Shown here: piece after piece, positions 17,567 through 46,925 of the stretch | Numbering within the stretch: the first letter of the stretch is position 1 | Layout of the letters: the number at the start of each line of letters is the position of its first letter | NCBI RefSeq assembly: GCF_003019035.1 | Contig: NZ_CP027448.1 | DNA length: 64,000 nucleotides | DNA from: Escherichia coli | GTDB lineage: Bacteria; Pseudomonadota; Gammaproteobacteria; Enterobacterales; Enterobacteriaceae | Reading direction: 5' to 3' (one strand) | Made by a program: the position numbers and the translations under genes | The notes under the pieces: model-generated | What the model saw: the letters and a program-made list of their open reading frames with translations, nothing else | Databases searched by the model: none | What the model was told of the DNA's origin: nothing

Positions 17567-18109
17567 ATGCGTCTTGGAATAATAATGCAGCTGTTGATTG
17601 TGCTCTTTTTTATGCGGGATGGATGGGGGGCGGAGCGAATAATATTTTCTGTAGATGTTGTGTCTTCAGCTTGTCATGTGGTGGTGGATGCGGACAGCAC
17701 CGGCAACAGTGGCCGGCTGACATTCGGGACTTACCGCAAGTCCACGGGGGCGTCTGTGCCTCCGCGTGACTTCACTGTGCGTCTGTATGAGTCCGGTGCC
17801 ACGGTTCAGGGCTGCTCAGCCTTTAAGGTCGGGCAGGTCGCCACTCTGGATTTTGGCAATCCGGGACAGCTGGACGCAGGGGGCGTGGTCACCCGCGGTG
17901 CCGGTGATGGTATTCGCGTGGATGTGCGCGCGGTGGATGCGCAGGCAGATTATCGCGGACGTCTGACTCAGGACAGTCATTCGGTGAATTACCCGGTGGA
18001 GTTTGCTGCTAAGGGACAGTTCCGTTTTCGTGCGCAGCCGGTGTTTCCGGCAAACGTGAAGGCGGGAGAATACACGGGTGCACTGACCTTTGTGGTCACG
18101 TATCAGTAA
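17567..18109 (+). CDS. Fimbrial minor subunit (FaeC-like) of a K88/F4-like chaperone-usher operon
   Basis: 180-aa secreted protein ending ...TFVVTYQ (pilin C-terminal strand); first gene of the operon, as faeC in K88. Confidence 0.7.
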
Positions 18110-18123
18110 CGGAGAAAAGGATT

Positions 18124-20568: not shown

Positions 20569-21352
20569 GCGTAACGCAGTAACGACGTTTTTCACTAACC
20601 GGGTGACAAAAGCACTGGGAATGACGCTGGCGCTGATGATGACCTGTCAGAGTGCGATTGCTTCCCTGGCGGCAGACCAGACCCGCTATATCTTTCGCGG
20701 GGACAAGGATGCGCTGACCATCACGGTCACCAACAATGACAAGGAGCGTACCTTTGGTGGTCAGGCCTGGGTGGACAATATCGTGGAGAAGGACACCCGT
20801 CCGACCTTTGTTGTGACACCGTCCTTCTTCAGGGTGAAGCCGAATGGTCAGCAGACGCTGCGTATCATCATGGCCTCGGACCATCTGCCGAAGGACAAAG
20901 AGTCAGTGTACTGGCTGAACCTGCAGGATATTCCGCCGGCTCTGGAGGGCAGCGGTATTGCAGTGGCGCTGCGCACGAAGCTGAAGCTGTTCTATCGTCC
21001 GAAGGCACTGCTTGAAGGCCGCAAGGGGGCAGAAGAAAGCATCAGCCTGCAGAGCCGCCCGGATGGCAGAACTATGCTGGTGAACACCACGCCGTACATT
21101 TATGCGATTGGCAGCCTGCTGGACGGAAACGGGAAGAGAATTACCACGGATAACGAGACGGCACAGAAACTGCTGATGTTCATGCCGGGGGATGAAGTAC
21201 AGGTAAAAGGGAATGTGGTTAAGGTTGCTTCACTGAACGATTACGGTGAACTGCAGACCTGGACAATTAACCAGAAAAAAACGTCAGCGTCTTCCGGGGA
21301 GAAGGTATCTGATTCGTCGGTTAATTTGCCTGATAAAGCAGAGAAGAAATAA
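20561..21352 (+). CDS. Fimbrial periplasmic chaperone (FaeE-like)
   Basis: About 260-aa protein following the usher; GTG at 20561 (AGGAG RBS, overlaps the usher stop) or ATG at 20621. Confidence 0.8.
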   Translation: MSKRNAVTTFFTNRVTKALGMTLALMMTCQSAIASLAADQTRYIFRGDKDALTITVTNNDKERTFGGQAWVDNIVEKDTRPTFVVTPSFFRVKPNGQQTLRIIMASDHLPKDKESVYWLNLQDIPPALEGSGIAVALRTKLKLFYRPKALLEGRKGAEESISLQSRPDGRTMLVNTTPYIYAIGSLLDGNGKRITTDNETAQKLLMFMPGDEVQVKGNVVKVASLNDYGELQTWTINQKKTSASSGEKVSDSSVNLPDKAEKK

Positions 21353-30395: not shown

Positions 30396-31399
30396 AACAG
30401 AAGAAAGACACGGGGAGGGAAACAATCCTTTCACAGTGTTCATTCGCTTTTATATCCATCCAGTTTACTTGTTTTCTCGTGTATGCCACAGGCGCAATAC
30501 ATAGACAGTCTGGCCAGTAAGTTCATAACGGATTTCGTATTCACCTGCCAAAATCCGTCTGACCTTCCCGGGTTCAAAACTGAAATAACTGTTCCTCCAT
30601 GCGTGGATGAGTTAACAAAATGGCCGGAACCTGTATCAGGTGTCAACGCCACGATGTTTGACCGTTACCGTCTTATATCACTGGCGCTGACACAGGAACT
30701 GCACCGTTCTGGTGGTGGCAGGTAATGGTACATGCGCAGTAAGCACTTTTGTTGCTTGTGCTGTATTTTTTTTCATTTTTACATCCGATTAGTTGTTAAT
30801 CATAGTGATTATATTCAGACGAAACAGGGCAAATAATGCGCGTCAGCGCATGTAAGGCGGCATACGGTGGTTACATGTAGCACAGGTGTAAAACCGCCGA
30901 AGCCCGGCGTAAGCCGGTACTGATTGATAGATTTCACCTTACCCATCCCCAGCCCTGCCAGACTATACTCGCTTTCAGCCATGACAGAGCTTCTGTGCGC
31001 GGTCGGAGTGGTCCCGACAAGGGTTTACCCGCAGTCGGGGCGTATCTCCGCGTTAGCGGGCCGTTAGGGCCGCTTACGAGCGTGTACTTCAAATCTTCCA
31101 GCCAGAAGACTGGCAGCGATGATAATGTAGTTACAACATTCATAATTAAAAGCGACTCTGTTCCGGCCCTTTGGGCCGGGGCGGGGCCGCTTTTCAGTTA
31201 TGAGGGGGGGCTTTGTGGTTTCAGTTCTGCGCGGGACCGGGTTTTTTTGGTGGTTGTATCTGAGTGTTGTAACTAAAGTAGCTCCGGTCGGGGCCCGCCG
31301 CTTGCGGTGGGAGGTGCATATCTGTCTGTCCAAAGGACAGGCAATGAATAGGTTTTCTTTTTAAATGAATGTAGTTAAGTAGTTTAAAGGAGATATAAA

Positions 31400-31620
31400 T
31401 AGGTGTTTAAAAGATACATTGCACCCTGTAAGGCTGGCGGATGGCGCTTTATGACATGAACGGTTGTAACCTTATGAGGAAGTCCCTTGCAGTTAAATGT
31501 GGATAAGCAAAATTCCTCGTCTGTGAGGCGTGTTTTGTATCAAAAACAGGAGGGACCGGATGCACCTGAAGGTGGATGATGAGGTTGTTTTTTGTATGCG
31601 GTGCTGTTTTTTTGTTCGCC
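31400..31620 (-). other. RepFIIA origin region (oriR), approximate, with DnaA box
   Basis: DnaA box TGTGGATAA at 31498-31506, about 180 bp downstream of repA1, as expected for R100/R1-type origins. Confidence 0.5.
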
Positions 31621-31681
31621 GACAGGCTTCAGGCGTGCAGATGCCTCCGGTGCGGGCCAGATTATTCTGAGGAGGTCACTT

Positions 31682-32539
31682 TCAGGGAGAAGCTGTGGCC
31701 AGCCGGCTGTAATTACGGTTACGTGACAGAATCATGCGCTCTTTCACACGACGCTCCACTTCGCGTTTTACCGCCTCACGATTGGCAGTGAAGCGCCCTT
31801 CCGAGATTTCACGCGTCAGCTGCCGTTTCACCAGGGTGACGATATCCTGACGTTCCCTGTTCGCATCACGACGCGCACGGGCACGCTTTATTCCACGGGA
31901 CTTAAGCTCTGTCTGGTAACTGCGGAAATGCTCACGCACAAAACGCCAGGCTTTCGCTATCAGTTCATCCATACCCAGGGTATCCAGTCCCTGCTTTTTG
32001 CGCTGTCTGTTTTCCCATTCAACACGACTGCGGCGCGCAGCAACCACTGCATCCTCAGACACATCAAGGGCGGCAAATAGCGCCGGTGTGAACGTGATAT
32101 TGGTCGGAATGTAGCACCCGATAAGCGGATCATATTCCGTCTGGTAGGTAATCAGTCCCAGCTCTGCAAGGAACGTCAAGGCTCGGGTGGCCCGGGTGAT
32201 GGAGAGTTTTCCGGCAGCAGACTCCGTCGCCAGTCCGCACTCAATGGCCAGCGTAGTGATGGAGCACTGGACGCGGTTGGCCAGCGGGTCATAGTGAAAA
32301 CACAGCCCCTGCAGCAGCGCATCAATAGCCCGGCGACGCAGTACCGGTGGCATGCGCCGACGCAGTCCCTTCGAACGGGCATGTGCCACATGAATGGCGA
32401 AATCAAAACGGGAGGTGAAGTCCACCGCCTTTTCCATCAGTTTTTCGCAGAACTTCAGCGTTCCGGCACCTTCACGGGGTGTGAATACCGGATTCGGGTT
32501 CTTTACCTGGCGGTAATACGTTTGTTGAAGATCAGTCAC
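31682..32539 (-). CDS. repA1: RepA1 replication initiator (IncFII/RepFIIA)
   Basis: Protein matches R100/R1 RepA1 as recalled ([39 protein letters not shown]...[14 protein letters not shown]); GTG start at 32539 overlaps the tap stop. The ORF track extends to 32551. Confidence 0.9.
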
Positions 32540-32606
32540 ACCATCCTGCACTTACAATGCGCAGAAGGAGTGAGCACAGAAAGAAGTCTTGAACTTTTCC
32601 GGGCAT
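32532..32606 (-). CDS. tap: tap leader peptide (translational coupling to repA1)
   Basis: Manual translation gives the 24-aa peptide [24 protein letters not shown], with its stop overlapping the repA1 GTG. Confidence 0.8.
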
Positions 32607-32617
32607 ATAACTATACT
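32589..32617 (+). promoter_or_regulatory. Candidate copA promoter (TTGAAC-17 bp-TATACT)
   Basis: Near-consensus sigma70 -35/-10 on the plus strand, about 85 nt upstream of the terminator at 32657-32708. Confidence 0.5.
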
Positions 32618-32623
32618 CCCCGC

Positions 32624-32708
32624 ATAGCTGAATTGTTGGCTATACGGTTTTTAGATGGCCCCGGTAATCTTTCATGTCGCCAAACTTGAAGAAGATTATC
32701 GGGGTTTT
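32624..32708 (+). ncRNA. copA: CopA antisense RNA (copy-number control), approximate ends
   Basis: Antisense to the repA1 leader upstream of tap; ends in a 14-bp stem (CCCCGGUAAUCUUU...GAAGAUUAUCGGGG) plus UUUU. Confidence 0.55.
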
Positions 32709-32838
32709 CACTTTTCTGGCTCCTGTAAATCCACATCAGAACCGGTTCCCTGCCACCTTATGGCGTGGCCAGCCACAAAATTCCTTAAACGATCAGCAAT
32801 CTATCACTCACGCCTGAGATAAGCAATAATGTGAATAT

Positions 32839-33096
32839 TCACATTATTGCTCTGCGTTTCAGCTCTGATTCAATCAGTTTTTCAAGCATCTGCGCCTGGG
32901 TAATACCTTCCTCATCTGCCAGTTCACTCAGCCTGTCTTTTAAACGGGCCTGGATAACCGCATGAAAAGCCTTATGAGTGTTGCTTCTGCGAGCCAGAGA
33001 AGCCCTTTGCCTCTCTCTGGCCGGAACAGGGTTACCTTTCCGGTATGCACGCTTGTTACCTGATGAGGAAGTCACTGCATTTTCTGTCTGCGACAT
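32839..33096 (-). CDS. copB: CopB (RepA2) repressor of the repA1 promoter
   Basis: 85-aa protein MSQTENAV... matching R100 RepA2 in sequence and position. Confidence 0.85.
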
Positions 33097-33263
33097 CTCG
33101 CCTCCTCAATACTTAAACAGGGATCATTTCGCAGAGGATACTACAGTTTTTTGAAATCAGCGACTTGAGAATTGTGACAAAGATCTGTGTTGGCGCACAA
33201 ATCAACGGGGATTACTGTCGTTTAATGTGATTTAAACTGTGAAATAGTATGGTTTTCAGTTAT

Positions 33264-33339
33264 GGAAACGCCGGGAGCGGAGAAAACTTGCTTTTTCCCG
33301 TTTCCGGGGTTGGACAACTGAGCAACGCGAAGGCGTCAG
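33264..33339. repeat. Conserved ~75-bp hairpin-containing element, copy 1
   Basis: GGAAACGCCGGG...hairpin...TTTCCGGGGTTGGACAACTGAGCAACGCGAAGGCGTCAG; second copy at 46086-46158. Confidence 0.7.
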
Positions 33340-33926
33340 CTACGATGTTCAGGTGGCTGCTGATCAGCCCCTGTTGTATTCAGCCATTCGCCGGTCATCT
33401 GCAGCAGTTTTCTGGCATCGTGGCTTCTGAGCAACGGTATACCAGCCTGCCTCATAACCTCTTCCAGAAGAATATCCCGGCGTCTGCGTTCCGGTCGTAA
33501 ATGGCTGGCATCATCCAGCTCTACTGCTGCAACAATACTGAACGAACGCCGCTCAACGATAACCACATCAACATGCCACTGGGACACCATCCTGAATAAC
33601 TGCCACCACTGACGTGATCGTGGCCGGATATTCCCGTTCAGCTGGACGATATCAGCGCCCCGTACCTGCGGGCACAGATACCACCGCTTCATATCCACAA
33701 TCCTGAACAACCCTTTCATGAAACTGACCTCTCTTTCTGTCAGCAACGTTTTCTGACGCTGCCAGTATTCACCGCTGACCAGTATTCGCTCAGCTTCACT
33801 GGGGCGTATGCCTGCTGCATGTAACCGTATCAGTGCGGGAGGACAGTTTTTACTCCTCCGGAATATTATCCGGACAGACAAAACAGCTATAATAATAACG
33901 ACTACAATGAAAATAATTAAATTCAT
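33336..33926 (-). CDS. DUF2726-like membrane-anchored protein (putative nuclease fold)
   Basis: N-terminal TM (MNLIIFIVVVIIIAVLSV) then a domain with blocks ...FRIVDMKRWYLCPQV... and ...HVDVVIVERRSFSIVAAVELDD... that I recall as DUF2726-like. Confidence 0.55.
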   Translation of the reverse strand: MNLIIFIVVVIIIAVLSVRIIFRRSKNCPPALIRLHAAGIRPSEAERILVSGEYWQRQKTLLTEREVSFMKGLFRIVDMKRWYLCPQVRGADIVQLNGNIRPRSRQWWQLFRMVSQWHVDVVIVERRSFSIVAAVELDDASHLRPERRRRDILLEEVMRQAGIPLLRSHDARKLLQMTGEWLNTTGADQQPPEHRS

Positions 33927-34077
33927 TATTATGTCCTTAATTACATATGAGTCCAGATGAACGAATGTAGTTTTCACCCGAAGTAAGACTCGCAATATTT
34001 ATCCCATGAATTACCTGAACGTTATCAGAAATACGACAAACCAGATCCGCAACAGATAATTCTGTTGTGATAAGGGG

Positions 34078-34704
34078 TCACCGCCTCGTTAACCAGACAA
34101 TTTTATCAGCCTGGATTTTAATTACCCCACGACGAACCAACTCACTACGTATACTAACAGCCCGTTCTTTATGCCATTCTCCTCGCATATGCGATTTTAA
34201 ATAATTATTAAACCCCTCCACTGACACCGGTAAATTCCGCACATCACTTCCGGATGCCTGCTGCATTCTGTTAGCCCACCGGATAATAACATCCCCCTCA
34301 GGGACAATCAGGTGAGATACCGGCAAATGACTCTCAGCGTGCTCTGGCGCAATACGTTCGCAACGAAAACCCCGTTTTTGCAGAGTATGAATTATTCCAT
34401 CATAGCCTTTATCGTTTGAAATAATATGCCAGGTGTTGTTTCCGGCACTGCAGCACGTCATCCTGCCGAGCTCCATAACAAGGTGAAAGTCAACATTATT
34501 CTTCGAAATGTTATCTATCTGTCTGATACTCACTCTGATATTATCTGGCCAGGTATCAGCAGGTAAGACCACTGTTTGCTGAAGAGGACCAGCAAATAAA
34601 ATCAAATCGGTATAATCAGCAAGCGATATATTTCTCAGATTGCAACAGTTTTCATAATCAATGAGCGCAATGCGTAATGCTTCATTTCTCATCATGTTTT
34701 CCAT
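34078..34704 (-). CDS. NYN/PIN-like domain protein (putative RNase fold)
   Basis: N-terminal ...RIALIDYENC... and later ...WHIISNDKGYDGIIH... match the acidic-residue arrangement of NYN-type domains; the ORF may start further upstream (track: 34740). Confidence 0.45.
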   Translation of the reverse strand: MENMMRNEALRIALIDYENCCNLRNISLADYTDLILFAGPLQQTVVLPADTWPDNIRVSIRQIDNISKNNVDFHLVMELGRMTCCSAGNNTWHIISNDKGYDGIIHTLQKRGFRCERIAPEHAESHLPVSHLIVPEGDVIIRWANRMQQASGSDVRNLPVSVEGFNNYLKSHMRGEWHKERAVSIRSELVRRGVIKIQADKIVWLTRR

Positions 34705-34997
34705 TATATATTCACCATAATAAAACAGAATAAACTGCAAACCCGACGCAGTGTATCTACCGGTCTGGTTAAGTTTTCATTATCGGAATATAAAATATTG
34801 TCTGCCGCCAGTCAGGCAGCCCGGAGTTCCGTGAGTGATATAACAAATCAATAAACCACCACTTAATTCATAAACATCCTTGTGTCACTATAAGCCGGTC
34901 GGTTATCCGGTGCGCCATGAGTAATCCGTTCTGAAGAACGGAAATACAGAGTGCCAGGTTGTCTCTCATAATACAAAAGCAAATTTCATGCATCATT

Positions 34998-35035
34998 CAG
35001 CCTCCTTACCCTGGAGAAACGGAGGCTGTTTTTTT
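34998..35035 (+). terminator. Rho-independent terminator (plus strand)
   Basis: CAGCCUCC-loop-GGAGGCUG followed by UUUUUUU. Confidence 0.55.
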
Positions 35036-35428
35036 ATATTCCTGAAACACCATCCGCAATGATTCATCGCTGGTGAGTTTTATGAATTTAATCTCAAATA
35101 TGCCAGCCTCTTTATTTATTCCTTCCGTCCATATTTCCGGCATCGTTCTGCGCGTAGCCGGGCAAATCGTCGCCAGTCCGCCCGGGGAGCAATTCCGGCG
35201 GCCTGACACCACGCCTCAGCAGCCTCCATCCAGAATCCACGGATTTCCAGATTAACAGCCCTGTGTCCGGTACGCTGCCAGCGCCAGACCTGGCCGTTTC
35301 GTGAACTGTTTCTGAATCCATTCATTTTCCTGTCCCCCTTTAGTTGTCAGTATTATTGTGATAAATAATTCAGTGGACTAGTTTTCTTTCGGGTACGGAA
35401 GTTATTTCCTTTTAAGCCTTATTTCCCT

Positions 35429-35456
35429 GCCTCCTCTCTCTGAGGGAGGCTTTTTT
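35429..35456 (+). terminator. Rho-independent terminator (plus strand), abutting the finO stop
   Basis: GCCUCC-ucucucugag-GGAGGC followed by UUUUUU; the U-tract exists only on the plus strand. Confidence 0.5.
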
Positions 35457-36016
35457 CATTTCTCATCAAGCACGGCCTGAAGTTCTGCCTTTATCCGGTT
35501 CTGGCGGCGGATTTTATCCAGACGCGTTGCCGCATACGCTTCCTCCTCCTGAGAAATATGCTCCGTCACATACCCTTCCGTGTCATACCGGCAGGCACCG
35601 GCTTTCATGGCACACAGATAGCTTTCTGAACGGGTGATGGCCTTCAGCGCCCTGCGCAGTTTTTTATGCGAGAGTGGGATATTCCGCTGCGCCACGTCTT
35701 CCATTAACACGTCCCGGATACCACAGGCCAGAAGCCGGGGTGTGTCACCGTCAAACAATCCCGGCCACCAGGGCTTCAGGGTGTTCACGGCCTCATCCAG
35801 CGTGGGCAGGTTCAGATAAATGGACAGCGCCTGTCTGGCCTGCGCTTTTTTTGCCGCCAGCTCCGCTTCCCGGGCTGCTTTCTCGGCCAGCTTCTGCTTT
35901 TTCACCTTCCATTTTGGTGGCGTGGTGACATTGATGATGGTTTTCCGGCTGCGGACAGGCGTCTCTCCTTCCGTTTTCCGCTTCAGTGTCAGTACAGGTC
36001 GTTTTTGCTCTGCCAT
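35456..36016 (-). CDS. finO: FinO fertility-inhibition RNA chaperone
   Basis: [52 protein letters not shown]... matches F/R100 FinO; located after traX as in F. Confidence 0.9.
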
Positions 36017-36118
36017 GCTTACTCTGACCTTCGTGAAAATATGCCCTGCAGGCCGTTGAAACAACTCATCGTAACAGGAAGTTAATTTCAACGACCTTTA
36101 ACGTATAAATACTGACAA

Positions 36119-36978
36119 TTAAAGATATTGTTTAAACCATTGTGTCTGCACAGCTACTACACGTTCAAAAAACGCGCCCTCATAAATATCATAATGGCAT
36201 GCATCAGCTTCCTCGTATAATTCCTTAGTACCAGAAGCAACAGCATCATATAATGCTCTTCCCTGTTCCGGTGGATTAACGCTATCCTGGCCGGCAATAA
36301 CAACCAAAACTGGGCACTGGACGCTGGCTGCACTCTCTGCCGGTTTATATTGCAACGTTTCCATGACCGTAAGGAAAGGTATTTTTATATCCATTTCGGG
36401 ATGCCGGGCTTTGATTTTCTCGAAGAATACCTTCGATTCATTATCACTTAGTACCCGTGTAACCCCCACAAACATCTCTTTCCCGGTGTTTTTCTTCTTC
36501 TCTGCCATTTTATTCAGCGTGGATAGAAAAGACGCTCTCTCCGATTCATTCATCTCTCCGGTAACCAGAACATCACCGTCAGCAAAAGCCAGCTGGCTGA
36601 CAATACATTTTACGCGTTGGTCCTGCGCAGCTGCACTGAAGACATGCCCCCTCCCAGCGATGTTCCCCATAACCCAATACGCTGATTATCAATACATTCC
36701 TGCTTTTCTGCCCAATTGATAACTGAAATAATATCTTCGGTCTGCATTGCAGGAACCAGACGCCCTCGTTCTCCATCACTCTCACCGAATCCTCGATAAT
36801 CAAAAGTAATCGTTGCGAATCCTGCTTCTGTGAAGGCATTCGCAAAGCAAGGGAGCAGAACATTCCTGATACCGCAAAACCCATGGCATAAGATAATCAA
36901 CGGATGTTTTATATTTCCTTCAGGAACACGAAATGTCAGGGCAATACCTTCAGAGAGTTTGTGATCCGTAATTTTCAT
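36119..36978 (-). pseudogene. Alpha/beta-hydrolase-fold protein, frameshifted
   Basis: Two overlapping ORFs (36610-36978 and 36119-36670) together form one hydrolase; nucleophile-elbow-like GLWGTSLGG. Confidence 0.6.
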
Positions 36979-37036
36979 AAATATCCTGTGTTATGTTGTT
37001 TATTAATAATCAGAATCAGCGTCAGTATCATACCAG

Positions 37037-37783
37037 TCACAACGCCAGAATGCCCAGCACAGCCAGATGACAGGCATAGAACGTCGGGAAAAAATCCCCG
37101 GGCCAGAAACGGGGTAATGATTTCCCTGCACACGACACCAGACCAACGGTCAGCACCGTCATCACAAGACCAGCTACAGCCGCCACATCACTGATAGTAA
37201 GGTTAAGAGCAGGAATAACAGCCAGCAGGCATGTAACCAGAACCAGACTCTCCGCTCTGTATTCCGCCCGGTATACCCGGTAGCTGGCCGCTAACATCAA
37301 CACCCCGACAATACCGTAACTGGTACCGGACAAAGGCAGCCATACTGCCAGAAGCGACATAGTCCCTGCGGAACGCCACAGGCTGCGCGTTTCACACCAT
37401 GTCAGCACCTGTGCCGCAACGGCAAAGGCAAACAGGATATTCCCCTCATACCAGGGAAAGCCGGCCAGATAATATGCGAACTGGGCAATCACTGCCCATC
37501 CCCACAACCGGTTAATGGCCTCCTGCCGGATATGCGTATGACGGGACAGATTCAGCCCCCACACCAGGGCAAAAAGCGGAAAGGCTCCTCGACCGGCCAG
37601 AAACATCCACGTCTTGTCCAGATGCAGAATGCGGTTTGCATGGTCCAGTACCATCAGCACCAGTGCCACCGTTTTGATGATATCCCGCTGTCCGGGTGAC
37701 CAGACCAGCAACGACTGCAACCAGGTATCGGTCCGGGCAGCCAGTGAATCGTTACGTGTCGTGTTCGTGTTATCCGTTGTCAT
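37037..37783 (-). CDS. traX: TraX (F-pilin acetylase)
   Basis: Polytopic membrane protein directly downstream of traI, as in F; start taken at MTTDNTNTT. Confidence 0.85.
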   Translation of the reverse strand: MTTDNTNTTRNDSLAARTDTWLQSLLVWSPGQRDIIKTVALVLMVLDHANRILHLDKTWMFLAGRGAFPLFALVWGLNLSRHTHIRQEAINRLWGWAVIAQFAYYLAGFPWYEGNILFAFAVAAQVLTWCETRSLWRSAGTMSLLAVWLPLSGTSYGIVGVLMLAASYRVYRAEYRAESLVLVTCLLAVIPALNLTISDVAAVAGLVMTVLTVGLVSCAGKSLPRFWPGDFFPTFYACHLAVLGILAL

Positions 37784-37802
37784 CAGTGTTTGTCTTCCTG
37801 TA

Positions 37803-40800
37803 TCAGTCTCCGCCCAGGGTTTTCTCTTTCTGCAGGTCACGAACCATATCCCGCTCCATCTGCTGCAGACGCTCCTGCAGCAGATTTTCCCGGGCAACCT
37901 CCCGGACCGCTTCCCGCTCCCGTTGTGATTCACGCAGCACACTATCCGGCAGCGCGGCTTCCCGTTCAGTTATGGCAGCCCGGTCACGCTCCTGCCCGGC
38001 AATTTCCCTGACAGCCAGCTCTGTTTTGCCATCCGGCAGGTCAGGTTTGTTCTCTGCCATTTTACGGACAATTTCATCTGCGCGGCGTTCCGTTTCACGG
38101 CGGATGGCCTCTTCAGCCTGCCTCTGTGCCAGCACCTCTGCCGTGACCGGTTCGCCATTTCCGGCTCCCGGCTGGACGCTGTTGTCCGGGATATCCCCCC
38201 ACACGCGGCCACCGGTTATGGCACCGGGATTCCACGGACGGCCTTCACCGGCGATTCTTACCACCACACCACTGTCAGGATTATCACGGGCAATCCGGAC
38301 ACCATCCTGCATATTATCAGCCAGCAGGCTTTCTCCGTTACGGCTGCCCTGCAGGGCCACAAACTGTGCATCTTCACTGCCCTTCACCCGGCCTTCACCA
38401 CTGAATCCCCGCAGCCCGTTTCCGTCATCCGTGGTCAGCGGGTTCAGCCAGATACCGGCAGACTTGCCGTTACGGTCAAAAGCCGGCAGTGCCACATACG
38501 GCTGTGGGTATTTGCGCCCCGGAGCAATAAACCGTGCAGGACTGTCTCCCCCGGCCAGCCCCGCCTGACGAAGAACGGCTCGGCCTGCCGCCACGTCCCG
38601 CAGCTCCCGCGCCGTACTGAACAGCCGCTCTGCATTCATGACCTCCCGGTCCGATTTCGGCTCAAACACATCGTGGGCAGTTCCTTTCTGTTCGGCATTG
38701 TTAATGGCATCCGTCCAGCCCTGACGGTTATCGGTGTACACCTGCACATGCTGCTTCATACGCGACAGGGCCACGTAGGCTGACTCAAAGCCGGCCATCT
38801 GTTTCCGGCTGCCTTCCGTGCCTTCAAGCGCAATGGCAAAGGTTTCACTTGCCCCCTGCGCACCGTGGGCGGTGATGGCATAGGCCAGGTCAATATGTTG
38901 CTCTGCCCGCTCCTGACCGGGGCGAATCACCCGGGTCTGCTGTCCGCCCGACAGCGTGACACTGTCACCGGAAACCGCTGTCACCGTCCAGACGCTGTTG
39001 GCCACATAGCCGCGCTCCCGGTCACTCTTCGTGAAGCGCATCCGGTCACCGGTCCCCACCCGGATGGTGTCCGGGGTGTACAGTGTGACACCTTCAGCCA
39101 CCGCCTCCCGGGGCGAAATCAGCCGCGTGTTACCTTCCGCATCCTGCAGGGTTATCAGCCCGTCACCCTTACTGATACCGGCAATCCGGTGATACACATT
39201 ATCCACCAGGACAAGTGCGTCCCGATGTGTCTCCCAGGTGGAGAGACGACGCAACTCCCCGTCGCGTATATTCGCTGTGTTCAGGACAGGCACCATGACC
39301 TGCTCTTTCCCCAGCTCACCGGCCTTTTCCCGTGCATCATGAATCATGCTGTTCAGTACGCGCCGGTCCTCATTCAGGTGCGTGACAATAAGCGTCTGCT
39401 CCCGTGCTTCCGGCGTCCTGCCGGTATAGTCGCGGACAATGGCTTCATACAGTGTCATGGGGACATCCGGAAAAGCCTCGCCGTTCTGCATCGCCTTCTG
39501 CTGCGCTTCTGCCAGTTTCGCTTCCTGGCTGTGACTGAACTCCGTCACAGAGTGCTCCGGTACCCATGCGCCCTCCTGACGTGGCACCTGAGACGGTTTC
39601 ACACTCTCAAGCCCGGACAATGCCCTTTCCACATCCCGGTTAATCAGGCTGTATACCGCCTCCCGCAGTTCCGGCGTCTGACGCACAATCTCCTTCATGA
39701 TGGCCACATCGGCAGCGCTGCGCGTCTGCTGGAGACGGAAAGGCTGACCGGGCGCGATGGCCTGCAGCTGGTCCGTGTCACCGCTGGCCACTGCACGACC
39801 ACCACCGGCCGCAATCAGGGCATATGCCCGTGCCATGTCGGTATTGCCCACCATTGAGCTCTCATCGAGCAGGAACAGCGTGTTGCTGAAATCCGGCGTT
39901 TCTCCGCTGCGCAGCTGCAGCTGCGTGCCATGCAGAAAGGACGCCAGTGTCTGTGCATCCACGCCGGCGCTGCGCATCTCCCCGACCGCACGGTGCGTGG
40001 GCCCCAGCCCCACGACACGGGGACGCTCACTCTCCGGCAGCATGTTCACGGCTGACATCACCGCCCGGAACTGTGTGGTCTTACCCACACCGGCATAGCC
40101 CTGCACCACCGTGAAACGGTCGGACGTTTCCAGTATCATGCGGGTGGCGGCACGCTGTCCTGATGTCAGACTCTCCATGACTCCGCCAGGGACTCTCTCC
40201 ATCAGCGGCGTGACCGCCTCCTTACCTTCGAGAATATGGCGAAGAATGCTCTTTTCTGCCTCATACGACGCACGGGAAACCAGCAGGCCTGTGCCATAGC
40301 CTTTTGCCACATCCACATACAGTAAATCACCGCGTTTTATCTGCGCATTGATTTCCCCTCCCAGTTCAGTAAAACTGGTTCCTTCTGCAGCAAACGACTT
40401 CGCCTCTGTCAGCAGGTCCACCATGCTGAAGGCCAGGTTTTTACTTTCCAGCACAGGAAGGGCCAGATGAATGGCCTGCTGTGCCGGCGTGTGAAGCCCG
40501 GCTTTCTGCAGACTGATAGCGGTTTCCAGCAATGTCTCACCGGCACGCGCCTTTATCTGCTCAGAAACCACCGTAAAGGAGGGATGGCGGGCAAGGTTTT
40601 CCGCCGTACGGGTTTCATCCAGCGAGGAATACAGCCGGACATCACGACCGCTGCGGGCCAGACCGTTCAGGGTGGCGTTGTCCATTGCCATCTGTGTGAC
40701 GGAGGCAAAAACCTTCGCACTGTCGCTGACGGAATGCCCGGGCGTTTCCACCCAGCCGTTCTCCAGCTTCAGTGCCGTGAACGGTGAATCGCTCACAGGC

Positions 40801-43073
40801 AGGGAGGCCGGTTCAGCCCGCCCCGGCACAACAACCGTCATCGAATCTTCACTGACGGATGCCACCTGCAGGCGGTCACCGCCGGAGACGCGGAGTCCGG
40901 GAATTTTCCCTGTCACCCTCAGACGCTCGCCGTCTGCCACCGGCATTTTTTCCGGCCGGAACAGCGACCAGCTGCTGTCCAGGGAGGAAATACGCACCAC
41001 CTGCGTTTCGCCCTGCGCATCCCGCAGGGTCAGGCTGTGACTCTGCGCCGTCACCCGATCGATAACATAGAGGTCATGACTGCGTGTCTCCGGGTTCCAC
41101 TGCTCCATCACCATCCCCGGACGGTACATATCCCGCAGATAACGGCTCCGGCTGTCCAGCCAGACCGGTGACAGAGCGGTCATGGTCACCTCCGGGTGTC
41201 CGAGCACGCCCTGTGTTTTCAGCTCACTGCGAACGGCCTGTGTCAGTATGGCCTGTTCCCGTACCCCGCTGACCTGTGCCACGCTCTCTTCTCCGGCTTT
41301 CACGCTGGCCGCAAAATCTCCGGCCAGCCGGGCATAGCGGACATTACGGTCCGGTTCACTGATGATGGTGGCCGGTCGCTGTTCTCCCCCCTGCCAGCGA
41401 TATGTGTTCACCCCGGCATCTTTCATGGCCATCAGTGCACTGCCTGTACCGGTTCGCTGCCCGCTGTCGGTTATCAGGACCTGTACGTTATGACGTGCGG
41501 CACCGTCCAGCAGGGTTAACGTCTCTTTCAGGGAGAGTTTTTCGCCCTGGTCAACGATAACAGTACTGCCCAGCGTGAAGGCCATGCCTTCCAGCAGCTG
41601 ACGACGTCCGGTTATCAGCTCACCGGACAGCCGTTCATCCTGCTTCAGGTTCATCTGCGAGCGACGGTCAGCAGCGATAATCTGCACTTCCCGCCCCTGC
41701 TCCCGGGCCATCATGACCAGTTCAGCCACCCGCTCACGCTGCCCGGCTGCACCGCCCTGCCCGGACACAATGGCCAGCGACGGACGGTCCTGTGCCAGAA
41801 CACTGACGGCATCGCTGTAGCCGGCCGTCCGGGGGACACTTTTCTCCGGATGTACGGTCACCCGGTTCTGTTTCATGATATCGCGACTGAGTGCCCGGAC
41901 TGACAGTTCATCGAGCACATGAATCCCGGACGTGAACAGCCCCTTCTCACGGTCAAGGGGGATGAGTTGCTCACGGCTGATGGCCTCATCGATACCGGCG
42001 CGTGCCCGTTCAATCACACCATTTTCCGGCGGCAGTATACCGACCGTTCTGGCCAGCACGTCCGTGTACGTAAACTGCACTTTTCGTTCACTTAATCCGG
42101 CAATCGCCTGTGTCACCGCCTGCTGCACATCCGGCCCCTCCTGTGAAACAGCCCCGGGCGCCTGCGTGCGGGTCTCCGCACGCTGATCCGCCGCGTCACG
42201 ATATGCCCGGATGTCGAACCCGGTTTCCTTCAGCGTCTGCATCCATTCAGCCATTCTGACTTCAGGATCGACGTGCTGTTTGGATTTTCGCGTATCCAGT
42301 GCCGCCACATCCCGGGATTTCAGCGAGGCGTCCTCCCCGACGGCCTCCCGGATAGTCTGCGAGCGTCCAGAAAAGGCCTCCACCGGTATGCCCAGCATTT
42401 CCCACATACCGTGCTGACCCACCACTTCGGTTTCATAGCCCAGCGCCTCAACCTGCTCTTTCAGTTTTTCCCGGTAGAGCCTGCCAAAGGCAATCTGATT
42501 AGCGTACACATTCTCAATGAACCCCGTTTTCCCCACTTTGTCACTGCTCAGTGTCTTCCATTCGCCGTTATGCTGCGTGACATTAGCCACCACCGCATGC
42601 GTGTGTAACTGTGGTTCCTGATCGCGACTGGTGTCGTGGTTAAACAGTGCCATCACCAGATTACCGGTCAGCACCGTTTCTGACTGTCCGTCCGTCATCA
42701 CCCGTGTGGAGGCCAGCGCCTCCACCTGACGGACAGCAAAATCCACGGCCTGGTTATGTGCTTCAATAAGACGTTTGTCCCCCCCGAGCATGGCCATCAT
42801 GGAGACACTTTTGGGAGCGGAAAAGGTCAGGTCGTAGCCGGGACGATGCCTGTTACGGCCATCCTGCATGCGGCTTAAATCCGCCCCGTCTGGCAACCTG
42901 CCCTCCAGAAGGCGGGTAAAGACATCCTTATCGACACTGCCCTGCAGCCCCAGTTGTTCAGCCCCCTGGCCGGCCCAGCGTTCTCCCATGCTGCCCAGCA
43001 CATAGTAATTATCCTTGTCGGTATAATAGTTCCCGGCACTTCCGGCCGATCTGACCTGCGCAATACTCATCAT
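37803..43073 (-). CDS. traI: TraI relaxase/helicase
   Basis: About 1756-aa protein; N-terminal relaxase (MMSIAQVRSAGSAGNYYTDKDNYY...) plus helicase domains; the track start at 43094 adds 7 residues. Confidence 0.95.
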   Translation of the reverse strand: MMSIAQVRSAGSAGNYYTDKDNYYVLGSMGERWAGQGAEQLGLQGSVDKDVFTRLLEGRLPDGADLSRMQDGRNRHRPGYDLTFSAPKSVSMMAMLGGDKRLIEAHNQAVDFAVRQVEALASTRVMTDGQSETVLTGNLVMALFNHDTSRDQEPQLHTHAVVANVTQHNGEWKTLSSDKVGKTGFIENVYANQIAFGRLYREKLKEQVEALGYETEVVGQHGMWEMLGIPVEAFSGRSQTIREAVGEDASLKSRDVAALDTRKSKQHVDPEVRMAEWMQTLKETGFDIRAYRDAADQRAETRTQAPGAVSQEGPDVQQAVTQAIAGLSERKVQFTYTDVLARTVGILPPENGVIERARAGIDEAISREQLIPLDREKGLFTSGIHVLDELSVRALSRDIMKQNRVTVHPEKSVPRTAGYSDAVSVLAQDRPSLAIVSGQGGAAGQRERVAELVMMAREQGREVQIIAADRRSQMNLKQDERLSGELITGRRQLLEGMAFTLGSTVIVDQGEKLSLKETLTLLDGAARHNVQVLITDSGQRTGTGSALMAMKDAGVNTYRWQGGEQRPATIISEPDRNVRYARLAGDFAASVKAGEESVAQVSGVREQAILTQAVRSELKTQGVLGHPEVTMTALSPVWLDSRSRYLRDMYRPGMVMEQWNPETRSHDLYVIDRVTAQSHSLTLRDAQGETQVVRISSLDSSWSLFRPEKMPVADGERLRVTGKIPGLRVSGGDRLQVASVSEDSMTVVVPGRAEPASLPVSDSPFTALKLENGWVETPGHSVSDSAKVFASVTQMAMDNATLNGLARSGRDVRLYSSLDETRTAENLARHPSFTVVSEQIKARAGETLLETAISLQKAGLHTPAQQAIHLALPVLESKNLAFSMVDLLTEAKSFAAEGTSFTELGGEINAQIKRGDLLYVDVAKGYGTGLLVSRASYEAEKSILRHILEGKEAVTPLMERVPGGVMESLTSGQRAATRMILETSDRFTVVQGYAGVGKTTQFRAVMSAVNMLPESERPRVVGLGPTHRAVGEMRSAGVDAQTLASFLHGTQLQLRSGETPDFSNTLFLLDESSMVGNTDMARAYALIAAGGGRAVASGDTDQLQAIAPGQPFRLQQTRSAADVAIMKEIVRQTPELREAVYSLINRDVERALSGLESVKPSQVPRQEGAWVPEHSVTEFSHSQEAKLAEAQQKAMQNGEAFPDVPMTLYEAIVRDYTGRTPEAREQTLIVTHLNEDRRVLNSMIHDAREKAGELGKEQVMVPVLNTANIRDGELRRLSTWETHRDALVLVDNVYHRIAGISKGDGLITLQDAEGNTRLISPREAVAEGVTLYTPDTIRVGTGDRMRFTKSDRERGYVANSVWTVTAVSGDSVTLSGGQQTRVIRPGQERAEQHIDLAYAITAHGAQGASETFAIALEGTEGSRKQMAGFESAYVALSRMKQHVQVYTDNRQGWTDAINNAEQKGTAHDVFEPKSDREVMNAERLFSTARELRDVAAGRAVLRQAGLAGGDSPARFIAPGRKYPQPYVALPAFDRNGKSAGIWLNPLTTDDGNGLRGFSGEGRVKGSEDAQFVALQGSRNGESLLADNMQDGVRIARDNPDSGVVVRIAGEGRPWNPGAITGGRVWGDIPDNSVQPGAGNGEPVTAEVLAQRQAEEAIRRETERRADEIVRKMAENKPDLPDGKTELAVREIAGQERDRAAITEREAALPDSVLRESQREREAVREVARENLLQERLQQMERDMVRDLQKEKTLGGD

Positions 43074-43154
43074 AAACGTATATCCCTTTGACATATCCCG
43101 GCATCAATCCCACAATGGATATACACAAGACATATCCACATAAGGAGGCAAATA

Positions 43155-43382
43155 ATGGAAACCACCGTATTTCTCAGCAACCGCAGCCAGGCGGTCAGAC
43201 TGCCAAAAGCGGTTGCATTGCCGGAAAACGTAAAACGCGTTGAAGTGATTGCTGTCGGACGAACCCGAATCATTACGCCTGCCGGAGAGACATGGGACGA
43301 ATGGTTCGACGGAAACAGTGTCAGCGCTGATTTTATGGATAACAGGGAACAGCCTGGTATGCAGGAAAGGGAGTCATTCTGA
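43155..43382 (+). CDS. vapB: VapB antitoxin (AbrB/SpoVT-type)
   Basis: 75-aa protein (METTVFLSNRSQAVRLPKAVALPENVKRVEVIAVGRTRIITP...); AAGGAGG RBS; overlaps vapC by ATGA. Confidence 0.8.
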   Translation: METTVFLSNRSQAVRLPKAVALPENVKRVEVIAVGRTRIITPAGETWDEWFDGNSVSADFMDNREQPGMQERESF

Positions 43383-43780
43383 TGCTGAAGTTTATGCTCA
43401 ATACCAACATCTGCATTTTTACGATAAAGAACAAACCCGCCAGTGTCAGGGAACGTTTTAACCTGAACCAGGGGAGAATGTGCATCAGTTCGGTCACTCT
43501 GATGGAGCTGATATATGGTGCAGAAAAAAGCCAGATGCCTGAACGTAATCTCGCTGTGATCGAGGGATTTGTTTCCCGCATTGACGTTCTGGATTACGAC
43601 GCTGCTGCTGCCACACACACCGGCCAGATAAGAGCAGAACTTGCCCGTCAGGGACGCCCTGTCGGGCCATTTGATCAAATGATCGCAGGTCATGCCCGCA
43701 GTCGGGGACTGATTATTGTGACTAATAACACCCGGGAATTTGAACGTGTGGGCGGCCTGAGAATTGAAGACTGGAGTTGA
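43382..43780 (+). CDS. vapC: VapC PIN-domain toxin
   Basis: 132-aa PIN-domain protein (MLKFMLNTNICIF...LMELIYGAEKS...IIVTNNTREF) immediately after vapB. Confidence 0.85.
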   Translation: MLKFMLNTNICIFTIKNKPASVRERFNLNQGRMCISSVTLMELIYGAEKSQMPERNLAVIEGFVSRIDVLDYDAAAATHTGQIRAELARQGRPVGPFDQMIAGHARSRGLIIVTNNTREFERVGGLRIEDWS

Positions 43781-43788
43781 CCTGTTCA

Positions 43789-45942
43789 TCAGAAATCATC
43801 TCCCGGCTCAACATCCTCCCCGCGCTCCCGGTGCACATTAATGTTCACCTCTTCACGACGCTGCATCTGCTGCTGGATGTCCGGATGATTTTCCTGTTGC
43901 CATGCCTCATAAGCGGCCATATCCACCACTTCACCGGATTCACTGATCCCGGGTGGCAGTTGCTGTTCCATCTCTTCTTCCGGTTTCATTTTCAGCTCCT
44001 GCTCGATCCCCCCTACCGGAACATTCACACCTGAATCTGACTTCTTATCGTTGATGGCAGGAGACACCGGCTGTTGCGGCTGTTCAGCCTGAGTCACGTC
44101 TTCTCCGGAAACAACCTCCGGGACATCCGGTTCGAAGAGGCTGGCCATCTGACGACCTTCTGCTTCCCTTGCGGCAAGTACGGCACTCAGACGGTTCTCC
44201 ATTTCCGGGTTGATGTCACGCGGAATAAACTCCGGAGCGACCTTCGGTCGTGTCTGATATTTCAGAGAGAGTTTTACTGCCGGATACGGTCCGGGCAGGG
44301 TGACATAACAGGTCAGATCCGGCAGAGACTGAATGTCGGAATAACTGACCAGCGTCTGGCGCTCCATATCCTTACCGGTCGATACCCCGTCACGTACCGG
44401 ATCAGCACCGTAGGAATACTGCTCGCTGGCTTTCAGGTGCTCTTTCTCACCAATTTCACCGGCAGCGAACTCTGCAATCTTATGGCTGGGAGAACGGAAA
44501 AAGGCACGGGTGTTCATGACGTCAAACAGCGAGGCAGCCGCTTTCTCACCGTAGATATCTTCCAGCTGGGCATAGGACTGGATACCAAACACATAACAGC
44601 CACCGAACTTACGGGCTTCCGGCAGGATCTCCACCAGGTCCGGCAGTTTGTGTAACGTGGGTAACTCATCACAGAAAAACCACACACGACGGTTACGGTT
44701 TTCTCCCATTGCCAGCAGACCACGAATGGCAATGGACAGCCACATGGAGATCACCGGCTTCAGGGAGGCATGGGTGTCGGCATTCGACGAAATAAACAGC
44801 CAGCCGTTTTTCTGATCTTCCCGGACACCACGCATCCAGTCACGGATGGTAAAAGACTCACCGTTATGCTCAATCCCCTGCAGGTAACGGATGGCTTTCA
44901 CGTAGTTGGTCAGCACAGCACGGATGGAAATCGCCGTTTTCTCAATTTTCTCTTCCACCAGGTTGGCCGCCGGTGAATTACGCAGGAAGGTACGCAGTTT
45001 TTCGATTTTGATGGAAAGCAGTGTGTCCACCAGTTTGCTGTAGCTGCGGTTGGGGTCATTACGCATCAGGTACGCCGCTTCCGCAAAAATGGTACGTCCT
45101 GACCCCTGCCAGAACGGGTCCTCTTTTGTGCCCATCGGGATCAGCGTGTTCGCGGTATTATCAAAATCCGGCTGTGTCAGGCACTCCTTCCACAAATCCC
45201 AGGCGGCACAGCGGGCATCCAGCGGATTCAGGATTTTATCGATGGAGGGATCATAGTAACTTTTAACAAATTCCCCTGAACGGTCATAAATCACCACCAT
45301 ATCTCCACGCTGACGGGCGTAGTTGGCCAGACGACGGATAACTTCCGACTTACCGGCCCCGACCGTGCCGTGCAGACAGAAGTTCTGGATTTCGGAATCC
45401 CGGATAATCGGCAGGTCGCCAATCCGTATATCGGAGTCCTTGCCGTCTTTTTTCAGCATCCGGGCAACGTCTTTCGGATTGTCTGTCAGCTGACGACCAC
45501 CTGTGACTTCATTTTCGCTCTGTTGTTTACCCTGACGCCCCAGAATCCAGGAGACAACAAAGAAGGTAATCAGGCAAATAACCAGTGCCACAACTGTGGC
45601 CAGAACGAATGCGGACCATAGCTGCTCTCCGCACCAGATCATATATTTATCATGCAGTACCTGAGCAGCATTCATCCGGAAGGTTTTGCCGTAATACTGG
45701 ATCTCATATACCGGCTGGGACTTGATTAAATCCCGCATGCCTTCCAGCGTGGTACACCACCAGTAAATACAGCCGTTCACAAACGTCTGCCAGCTTATTT
45801 TTACCCATAAAACCAGACCAACGAGTATCCAGAAAAAAATAAACAGGCAGTAAAGCATGATATTGGCGATCTGGCTGAACATGCGGATACGCATGGACGC
45901 AATCTGACCGCCCTGGGTCATATCCTTTGCGTTAAAACTCAT
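43789..45942 (-). CDS. traD: TraD type IV coupling protein
   Basis: 717-aa ATPase with N-terminal TM segments and Walker A (GTVGAGKS); Q/P/E-rich C-terminal tail typical of F TraD. Confidence 0.95.
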
Positions 45943-46085
45943 GATGATATTCCGAAGAAAAAAGTCAGTCGGACTGATTATTAATGATGAAAAGATTAAT
46001 AACCGTTAAATTCCGGCTTCGCCGGCAACACTTCACGGTCGCACAAAGAATTTGCACAACCGCTCAGTGTTTTCATATTTATTTC

Positions 46086-46158
46086 GGAAACGCCGGGGAG
46101 AAATAAAATTTATTTTATTTCTTTCCGGGGTTGGACAACGAGCAAAGCGAGGCGTCAG
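46086..46158. repeat. Conserved ~75-bp hairpin-containing element, copy 2
   Basis: GGAAACGCCGGGG-AGAAATAAAATttATTTTATTTCT-TTCCGGGGTTGGACAACGAGCAAAGCGAGGCGTCAG, 36 nt downstream of the traT stop. Confidence 0.7.
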
Positions 46159-46193
46159 TCAGGAGGCCGGTCAGACCAGCCTCCGGAAGATAA

Positions 46194-46925
46194 TCAGAGA
46201 ATATTTGCGATTGATTTGGCCAGCTGGTCTTCGAGAACAGGCTTCGCCTCTTCAAATTTCAGGTTAACCTTGTTCGCACTGGAGACCACACGGGTCTGAT
46301 ATTTATGCTGGTTACCTGTTTCAGTACTGGTCTGAATTTTCGCACCTGAAGTGCCCTGACGCAGGGCGGCAACATTATCTGTTGTCACCGTTGTCTTAGT
46401 ACGCTCTGCAATCTGCACATCCGTGATCATGGTATAGTTCACATCTTCCACCATCGCATCTGCAGCCATACCCACCAGACCAGCAGCAAGGCCCACACCG
46501 AGTGTGGCACCGGCAGAATTGGAATTATATCCGGTAATACCGGCACCTAACGCTGCACCAACAGCTGCGCCTTCATAACCACGGTTCAGCCATCCCTGAG
46601 ACTCCCGCAGATCCATCTTATCGGCCTTCAGCACATTCGCCTGAATCCAGTAGTAGGCTTTATCCGGAGAAGTCACCACCTGATACCCTTTTGCTTTCAC
46701 AGCATCAGCAATTTTGCCCTGCAGCCCACTCATGTCTTTATCAGACGTGTTTTTGATCTGCAGAAATACCGTGCGTTCGCTGGCGGGTTCAAGCCAGATG
46801 GTCTCACTCATCTGGGTCTTCACCTCAAGGTTACGCTTCTTGATTGCTGTGCTCATCGCACCACACCCTGAAAGGGCCAGAGTGGAACTGACCAGTGCAA
46901 CCATCATCAATTTTTTTGTTTTCAT
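46194..46925 (-). CDS. traT: TraT surface-exclusion / serum-resistance lipoprotein
   Basis: 243-aa lipoprotein (lipobox LSGC) matching F TraT. Confidence 0.9.

What the first reader, a model, noticed from the sequence alone, without database searches (positions are those of the whole stretch)
36119..36978. Frameshifted alpha/beta-hydrolase gene between finO and traX
A single hydrolase-fold gene is split across two overlapping frames at 36610-36670. This is probably an accessory gene in decay, or a sequencing error in a run of bases.
Basis: seen in the sequence. Interest (0 to 1): 0.15.

Follow-up and report, generated by a model that had tools for sequence, protein, structure and literature searches.

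The report
Frameshifted plasmid lactonase gene (uilS/orf286)
A well-known accessory gene of F-like plasmids, predicted to destroy bacterial quorum-sensing signals, has been knocked out here by the genuine loss of one G from a run of six; this is an ordinary, inherited pseudogene rather than a sequencing mistake or a new kind of feature.

Summary
On the minus strand, ORFs 36610-36978 (122 aa) and 36119-36670 (183 aa) are the two halves of one 286-codon gene between traX and finO. They match complementary parts of the same profiles. The only difference from an intact copy (NZ_CP062205, WP_069917653.1) is one G missing from a G6 run (C5 at 36647-36651 on the + strand), four codons after the catalytic serine.

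The gene is more specific than "an alpha/beta hydrolase". The repaired protein passes NCBIfam's equivalog model for UilS-family N-acyl-homoserine lactonases (510.6 bits, cutoff 400). R100 carries the same 861-bp gene at the same position.

The frameshift is very probably real. Two assemblies of other read sets are 100.000% identical to the window over 15.7 and 11.3 kb, including the G5 tract. This haplotype's C-terminal fragment is on 61 contigs. A second split gene in the window is also reproduced elsewhere, and all tra genes are intact.

The same truncated product occurs on at least five uilS haplotypes, once through a different 1-bp deletion. Some of those cases are clearly long-read homopolymer errors.

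Verdict: a genuine, lineage-inherited pseudogene of a known gene. Interest is low.

The parts
36119..36978 (-). Whole uilS-family (orf286-type) gene, now a pseudogene: 860 nt instead of 861.
   Evidence: Identical to the 861-nt CDS of NZ_CP062205 (WP_069917653.1) except for one missing G. The repaired protein scores 510.6 bits against NF047920 lactonase_UilS, cutoff 400.
36647..36651 (.). The lesion: a C5 run on the + strand (G5 in the gene) where intact copies have six. It falls in Gly codons 110-111, four codons after the catalytic Ser107.
   Evidence: Alignment. In the intact gene this G6 run ties with a T6 run as the longest homopolymer. 1682 of 1696 plasmid records fall in the 95-99% identity band expected for the one-base-longer tract, and 12 match G5 exactly.
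36610..36978 (-). 5' ORF: 111 native residues, then 11 aberrant residues (MSSVQLRRTNA), then a premature TAA at 36610-36612. It keeps the nucleophile elbow G-T-S-L-G (Ser107 codon at 36658-36660).
   Evidence: This exact 122-aa product is on 376 contigs in public assemblies.
36119..36670 (-). 3' ORF of 183 codons. Bases 36122-36646 carry native residues 112-286, including Asp232 (36284-36286) and His262 (36194-36196). Its ATG at 36668-36670 is an out-of-frame codon of the intact gene.
   Evidence: Codon positions were read from the sequence. S107, D232 and H262 are invariant in 16 homologues (where numbering is one lower).
35456..36016 (-). finO, intact at 186 aa, 102 nt downstream of the pseudogene.
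   Evidence: No terminator-like site was found on the minus strand in the spacer.
37037..37783 (-). traX, intact at 248 aa, 58 nt upstream of the pseudogene.

Best explanation
This is a genuine loss-of-function allele of the F-like-plasmid gene between traX and finO. The gene is 286 codons long and belongs to the UilS family of alpha/beta-hydrolase-fold acyl-homoserine lactonases.

One G was lost from the G6 tract (GGA GGG GGG, Gly109-111), most likely by replication slippage. Translation now runs 11 wrong codons and stops at 36610-36612.

The 122-aa product keeps the serine nucleophile. It lacks the central (presumed cap) segment and the Asp232 and His262 of the catalytic triad, so it cannot be an active hydrolase. 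The downstream 183-codon ORF lacks the first half of the fold, and I found no sign that it is expressed.

The allele is inherited in a circulating plasmid lineage. finO, traX and the tra operon are untouched.

What is shown: the lesion, the family assignment, the positions of the triad residues, and the reproduction of the allele in independent assemblies. What is inferred: slippage as the cause, loss of enzyme activity, and lactonase activity of the intact plasmid protein (which rests on homology only).
For: - **Single difference:** a 1-bp gap is the only difference from an intact 861-nt copy.
- **Complementary profile matches:** the two ORFs cover adjoining parts of the same models. The repaired protein passes the NF047920 equivalog cutoff (510.6 vs 400), while the fragments score 198.4 and 300.1.
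- **Catalytic residues:** S107, D232 and H262 are invariant across 16 homologues of 61-88% identity. They align with the nucleophile, acid and histidine regions of solved alpha/beta hydrolases.
- **Independent assemblies:** Logan assemblies of SRR27538782 and SRR27539039 are 100.000% identical to the window over 15,700 and 11,276 bp with no gaps, G5 tract included.
- **Frequency in this haplotype:** its C-terminal fragment is on 61 contigs, against 149 contigs for the intact form.
- **Clean surrounding sequence:** this is the only indel in coding DNA between 32806 and 43073 relative to NZ_CP062205. All tra genes from traI to traV have canonical lengths.
- **Second split gene is also real:** the other split gene in the window (9123-10162) is found in 55 independent blocks.
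Against: - No reads from the source isolate were available.
- I could not check the sequencing platform or project of the Logan runs. Their accession numbers are close, so they may come from one study or outbreak clone.
- The same G5 allele in several public long-read assemblies sits among many other frameshifts and is probably artefactual there.
- In RefSeq complete E. coli genomes it occurs in only 1 of 1366 records.
- AHL-lactonase activity has been shown for the chromosomal Serratia UilS (PMC11633161), not for the plasmid protein.
Confidence: 0.85

Rival explanations
1. Sequencing or assembly error: the isolate really has G6 and an intact gene, and one base was dropped in a homopolymer.
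For: - The lesion is in the longest G/C homopolymer of the gene.
- 11 of the 12 PLSDB records with G5 are GenBank-only entries.
- The single RefSeq record with G5 also has frameshifts in finO, traX, traI and a nearby thermonuclease-family gene.
- Several G5 loci (L005, L008, L009, L012) have fragmented traI and traD.
Against: - Two other read sets, assembled independently, give 100% identical DNA with G5.
- 61 contigs carry this haplotype's fragment.
- The window has no broken tra gene.
- Its other split gene is reproduced in 55 blocks.
- G5 loci with clean neighbours exist: L004, L007 and L010.
Confidence: 0.08
2. The G tract is a contingency (phase-variable) switch, or the frameshift is bypassed by programmed ribosomal or transcriptional slippage, so the enzyme is still made some of the time.
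For: - The same truncated product is found on at least five uilS haplotypes.
- One lineage (L007, L010) has a 9-G tract at this site, a length at which slippage is frequent.
Against: - Five or six G's is short for phase variation.
- The +1 (G7) and -2 (G4) products are on only 2 and 3 contigs, against 376 for G5, so there is no sign of two-way switching.
- About 99% of plasmid copies appear to carry the intact-length tract.
- Restoring the frame needs a -1 shift, and GGA GGG GGC is not an X XXY YYZ slippery heptamer (read from the sequence).
- Transcriptional slippage normally needs longer A or T runs (general knowledge).
Confidence: 0.04
3. The loss is selected. Inactivating the ORF upstream of finO lowers FinO by polarity or mRNA destabilisation and raises transfer, or it removes a costly quorum-quenching activity.
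For: - The gene is hit repeatedly at one site, once by a different event: deletion of the A, giving G9.
- The pseudogene form makes up a high share of this haplotype, 61 contigs against 149 intact.
- No terminator-like site lies between the gene and finO.
- From my own recollection: van Biesen and Frost 1992 reported that the ORF upstream of finO in R6-5 raises finO mRNA levels. That paper is cited in PMC7690428 but I could not read it.
Against: - The 596 nt left untranslated are G-rich (C 17%, G 26%) with no C-over-G stretch of the kind Rho uses.
- The contig counts may reflect sampling of one clone.
- Nothing here measures FinO level or transfer frequency.
Confidence: 0.03

Closest known systems
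UilS family quorum-quenching N-acyl-homoserine lactonase (NCBIfam NF047920; founding member is Serratia marcescens RM66262 UilS, PMC11633161)
   Same: The repaired protein matches the model end to end (positions 1-285 of 285) at 510.6 bits, above the 400-bit cutoff. Current RefSeq labels the intact plasmid gene uilS. It has the alpha/beta-hydrolase fold and a Ser-Asp-His triad.
   Different: - The window copy is frameshifted, and neither fragment reaches the cutoff.
- It is plasmid-borne at the end of the tra operon, not a chromosomal gene next to luxR.
- No AHL assay of the plasmid protein was found. Its identity to the Serratia protein was not measured here, and no Serratia entry was among the 120 best hits.
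The 286-codon ORF between traX and finO of R100/R6-5 (Swiss-Prot style name 'Uncharacterized 31.7 kDa protein in traX-finO intergenic region'; 'orf286' from memory)
   Same: R100 has an 861-bp gene in the same position, with the same 58-nt and 102-nt spacers. The R100-type intact protein differs from the repaired window protein at one residue (N180D), carries that name, and is on at least 1000 contigs.
   Different: The window allele has the 1-bp deletion. The reported effect of this ORF on finO mRNA is recalled from memory and was not checked in a readable paper.
Frameshifted uilS pseudogenes already annotated in public records (e.g. WNL14_RS26575 in NZ_JBUXMK010000002)
   Same: The same G5 tract, annotated by PGAP as 'frameshifted'.
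   Different: In that record the neighbouring genes are frameshifted too, so it is probably an assembly artefact. In the window the neighbours are intact and the allele is reproduced elsewhere.
AidA-type alpha/beta-hydrolase AHL lactonases (Acinetobacter baumannii AidA)
   Same: Same fold and same predicted chemistry. One automated annotation of a split copy calls the fragment AidA (OR902841).
   Different: Only distantly related: the UilS paper gives 28% identity between UilS and AidA. This is not the family the gene belongs to.

Membership tests
UilS family N-acyl-homoserine lactonase (NF047920, equivalog) | Whole-protein score above the curated cutoff (400 bits) with full-length coverage of the model | tested here: met
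As encoded, the fragments score 198.4 and 300.1, both below the cutoff. The locus is therefore a pseudogene of a family member, not a functional member.
UilS family N-acyl-homoserine lactonase (NF047920, equivalog) | Alpha/beta-hydrolase catalytic triad on a single polypeptide: nucleophile Ser in G-x-S-x-G, plus Asp and His | tested here: not met
   Ser107 is in the 5' ORF, while Asp232 and His262 are in the 3' ORF in another frame. All three residues are invariant in 16 homologues.
UilS family N-acyl-homoserine lactonase (NF047920, equivalog) | Hydrolysis of acyl-homoserine lactones | not testable with these tools
   Shown for Serratia UilS with biosensor assays (PMC11633161). No assay of the IncF plasmid protein was found.
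traX-finO ORF of R100-type F-like plasmids | An 861-bp gene on the tra strand between traX and finO | tested here: met
   The window has traX 37037-37783, the gene at 36119-36978 (860 bp) and finO 35456-36016. R100 has the same order and spacing.
Phase-variable (contingency) locus | Long homopolymer with frequent switching in both directions among close relatives | tested here: not met
   The tract is 5-6 G. By exact truncated product, G5 is on 376 contigs, G7 on 2 and G4 on 3. 12 of 1696 plasmid records match G5 exactly, and 1682 fall in the identity band expected for G6.
Programmed -1 ribosomal frameshift site | X XXY YYZ slippery heptamer in the zero frame, with conservation of the split arrangement | tested here: not met
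   The zero frame reads GGA GGG GGC, which is not a heptamer of that form. The split arrangement is the rare state, not the conserved one.

The most novel reading that the evidence does not exclude
The G-rich codons just after the catalytic serine could be a recurrent inactivation hotspot that selection exploits. Independent F-like plasmid lineages would then switch off their quorum-quenching lactonase, and perhaps retune finO expression, at the same few bases. One lineage has gone on to a hypermutable 9-G tract.
Probability: 0.07. Interest if true: 0.4.

Novelty: already known. Interest (0 to 1): 0.1.

Why it matters
It matters little beyond correct annotation.

- The locus should be labelled as a frameshifted pseudogene of a UilS-family lactonase, not as two hypothetical proteins or "AidA".
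- The plasmid should be assumed to lack that activity.
- The G6 tract breaks both in nature and in long-read assemblies, so a G5 call at this site needs read support before it is believed or "corrected".
- Whether the intact plasmid enzyme really degrades acyl-homoserine lactones, and why a quarter of complete E. coli genomes carry it (1316 of 5426), is an open question. This window does not help to answer it.

Tried and rejected
- **Source record:** I looked for the window's source in PLSDB and in RefSeq complete E. coli genomes. It is not there; the best matches are mosaics with 70-74% coverage.
- **Literature on the traX-finO ORF:** 'orf286' together with finO gave no paper. 'orf286' alone gave only unrelated organelle and phage papers. 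The 'Five Shades of F' review does not discuss the gene.
- **Polarity on finO:** considered, but the untranslated stretch is G-rich with no rut-like region. A weak hairpin with a T-run at 36601-36588, just after the premature stop, is only a 5-pair consensus match.
- **Recoding and phase variation:** rejected, as set out under the rival explanations.
- **General error-proneness of the window:** rejected. The tra genes are intact. The indels relative to relatives lie in the replication-region intergenic DNA, an IS3 element and one other gene, and that other gene's split is reproduced elsewhere.
- **Not done:** no structure prediction or fold search was run, because the sequence evidence was sufficient.

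Full report
**1. The observation**

On the minus strand there are two ORFs, 36610-36978 (122 aa) and 36119-36670 (183 aa). They overlap by 61 nt in different frames. The first matches Pfam Abhydrolase_1 at profile positions 1-84 of 245, and the second at positions 85-244. In NCBIfam NF047920 they cover positions 1-110 and 105-285 of 285. Two chance ORFs would not fit one profile end to end, so this is one gene broken once.

Alignment with intact copies from NZ_CP062205 and NZ_CP025844 pinpoints the break. The window's 860 nt are identical to the 861-nt CDS of NZ_CP062205 (WP_069917653.1) except for one missing G. Intact copies read CTG GGA GGG GGG CAT, and the window reads CTG GGA GGG GGC ATG. 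On the + strand this is the C5 run at 36647-36651.

- finO at 35456-36016
- traX at 37037-37783
- traI at 37803-43073

**2. What the gene is**

The repaired protein scores 510.6 bits against NCBIfam NF047920, 'UilS family quorum-quenching N-acyl-homoserine lactonase'. This is an equivalog model with a 400-bit cutoff, and the match covers its full length. Current RefSeq annotation names the intact plasmid gene uilS.

The founding member is a chromosomal Serratia marcescens enzyme. It degrades C10-AHL in biosensor assays, and it does so also when expressed in E. coli (PMC11633161). That paper says nothing about plasmid copies.

R100 carries the same 861-bp gene between traX and finO with identical spacing. 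The R100-type protein bears the database name 'Uncharacterized 31.7 kDa protein in traX-finO intergenic region'. From memory, this is the 'orf286' of R6-5 described by van Biesen and Frost in 1992. The paper is cited in PMC7690428, but it is not in the searchable library.

The 81-bp segment around the lesion is present in 1316 of 5426 complete E. coli genomes, almost always on plasmids. Chromosomal homologues of 62-70% identity occur in Pantoea, Erwinia, Enterobacter and others.

**3. Consequence of the lesion**

In an alignment of 16 homologues (61-88% identity), the nucleophile elbow G-T-S-x-G with Ser107, Asp232 and His262 are all invariant (numbering there is one lower because the query lacked Met1). 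They align with the corresponding regions of solved alpha/beta hydrolases 7qjm, 7d78 and 5xb6.

The frameshift falls in Gly codons 110-111. The 5' product therefore has 111 native residues, including Ser107 (codon 36658-36660). Eleven wrong residues follow, and then a TAA at 36610-36612. Asp232 (36284-36286) and His262 (36194-36196) lie in the other frame.

The triad cannot be assembled on one chain, so loss of activity is a safe inference. The ATG of the 3' ORF is simply an out-of-frame triplet of the intact gene. I found no evidence that it is used.

**4. Real mutation or sequencing error?**

Several lines point to a real mutation.

(a) *Independent assemblies.* The exact C-terminal fragment of this haplotype is recorded on 61 contigs, all 50 kb or shorter. 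Two of them are Logan assemblies of runs SRR27538782 and SRR27539039. They are 100.000% identical to window 30971-46670 and 31057-42332, with no gaps and with the G5 tract. The intact form of the same haplotype is on 149 contigs.

(b) *The window is otherwise clean.*
- From traI to traV every tra gene has its canonical length.
- Between 32806 and 43073 the uilS deletion is the only indel in coding DNA relative to NZ_CP062205.
- The window's other split gene, a TPR protein at 9123-9641 plus 9584-10162, is also found in 55 independent blocks, including three NCBI assemblies and an ENA metagenome.

(c) *There is a genuine caveat.* The same G5 call is sometimes an artefact.
- The single RefSeq complete-genome record with G5 (1 of 1366) also has frameshifts in finO, traX, traI and a nearby thermonuclease-family gene.
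- 11 of the 12 PLSDB records with G5 (12 of 1696) are GenBank-only.
- Several G5 loci have shattered traI and traD (L005, L008, L009, L012).
- Others are clean (L004, L007, L010).

I had no reads from the source isolate, and I could not check the platform or project of the Logan runs. I put the real-mutation reading at about 0.85 and the error reading at about 0.08.

**5. Recurrence**

The exact 122-aa truncated product is on 376 contigs. It sits on at least five uilS haplotypes that differ from the window at up to 34 other positions, in plasmids whose flanks are only 94-96% identical to the window.

One lineage (L007, L010; 17 contigs) reads CTGGGGGGGGGCATG. The simplest reading is deletion of the A from GGGAGGGGGG. 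That is a different 1-bp event giving the same protein and leaving a 9-G tract. The intact form of that haplotype is not in the collection.

The +1 (G7) and -2 (G4) products are on only 2 and 3 contigs. In the intact gene the G6 run ties with a T6 run as the longest homopolymer.

The pattern fits a modest slippage hotspot, clonal spread of a few lineages, and some long-read artefacts. It does not fit two-way phase variation. Recombination of the conserved 5' half between haplotypes cannot be excluded as a contributor.

**6. Rivals considered**

- *Programmed recoding* is unsupported. Restoring the frame needs a -1 shift, but GGA GGG GGC is not a slippery heptamer, and the split state is the rare one.
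- *An effect on finO* is conceivable. The gene lies 102 nt upstream of finO with no terminator-like site between them. However, the 596 nt left untranslated are G-rich (C 17%, G 26%) with no Rho-type C-rich stretch. Nothing here measures FinO.

**7. Verdict**

This is a known gene carrying a common kind of lesion. The identical allele is already annotated as 'frameshifted' in a public record.

- a precise name, a UilS-family lactonase (the R100 traX-finO ORF);
- the exact lesion, G6 to G5 at 36647-36651;
- evidence that the frameshift is inherited rather than an error.

Novelty: already known. Interest: about 0.1.

Noticed in passing
window 9123-10162 (+): A second split gene. ORFs of 172 aa (9123-9641) and 192 aa (9584-10162) correspond to one 346-aa tetratricopeptide-repeat protein in NZ_CP128589 (WP_112026323.1). 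The window lacks a T near 9557, outside any homopolymer. The split form is found in 55 blocks of public assemblies, so it is real.
   Followed up: partly
window 7691-9064 (-): An IS3-family element differs from the copy in NZ_CP128589 by three 1-bp indels (near 7735, 8215 and 8643). It shows several short ORFs instead of the usual two-ORF transposase, so it is probably a decayed IS.
   Followed up: no
L007 and L010, locus position about 8322-8336: In another plasmid lineage the same gene reads CTGGGGGGGGGCATG, a 9-G tract. This is most simply explained by deletion of the A from GGGAGGGGGG. It is seen on 17 contigs, and the intact form of that haplotype is absent from the collection.
   Followed up: partly
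window 43070-43789: A vapB/vapC (PIN-domain) toxin-antitoxin pair sits on the + strand between traD and traI, as in NZ_CP097214. NZ_CP062205 has traD directly abutting traI.
   Followed up: no
window 3339-7238 (-) and about 17500-24700 (+): The plasmid carries a 1299-aa S6-family serine-protease autotransporter and an F4(K88)-like fimbrial operon (faeD, faeE, faeF, faeH, faeI homologues). The closest relatives come from cattle and farm E. coli.
   Followed up: no
window 36588-36601 (-): A weak terminator-like hairpin (5 pairs, then TTTTGCTG) begins 9 nt after the premature stop codon. It lies inside the coding region of the intact gene and is probably a chance consensus match.
   Followed up: no
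window 30839-31607: Six 1-bp indels relative to NZ_CP062205 cluster downstream of repA, in G-rich and T-rich runs of what looks like the replication-origin region, with three further small indels against NZ_CP043827 over the same stretch. They may be true variation in non-coding DNA.
   Followed up: no
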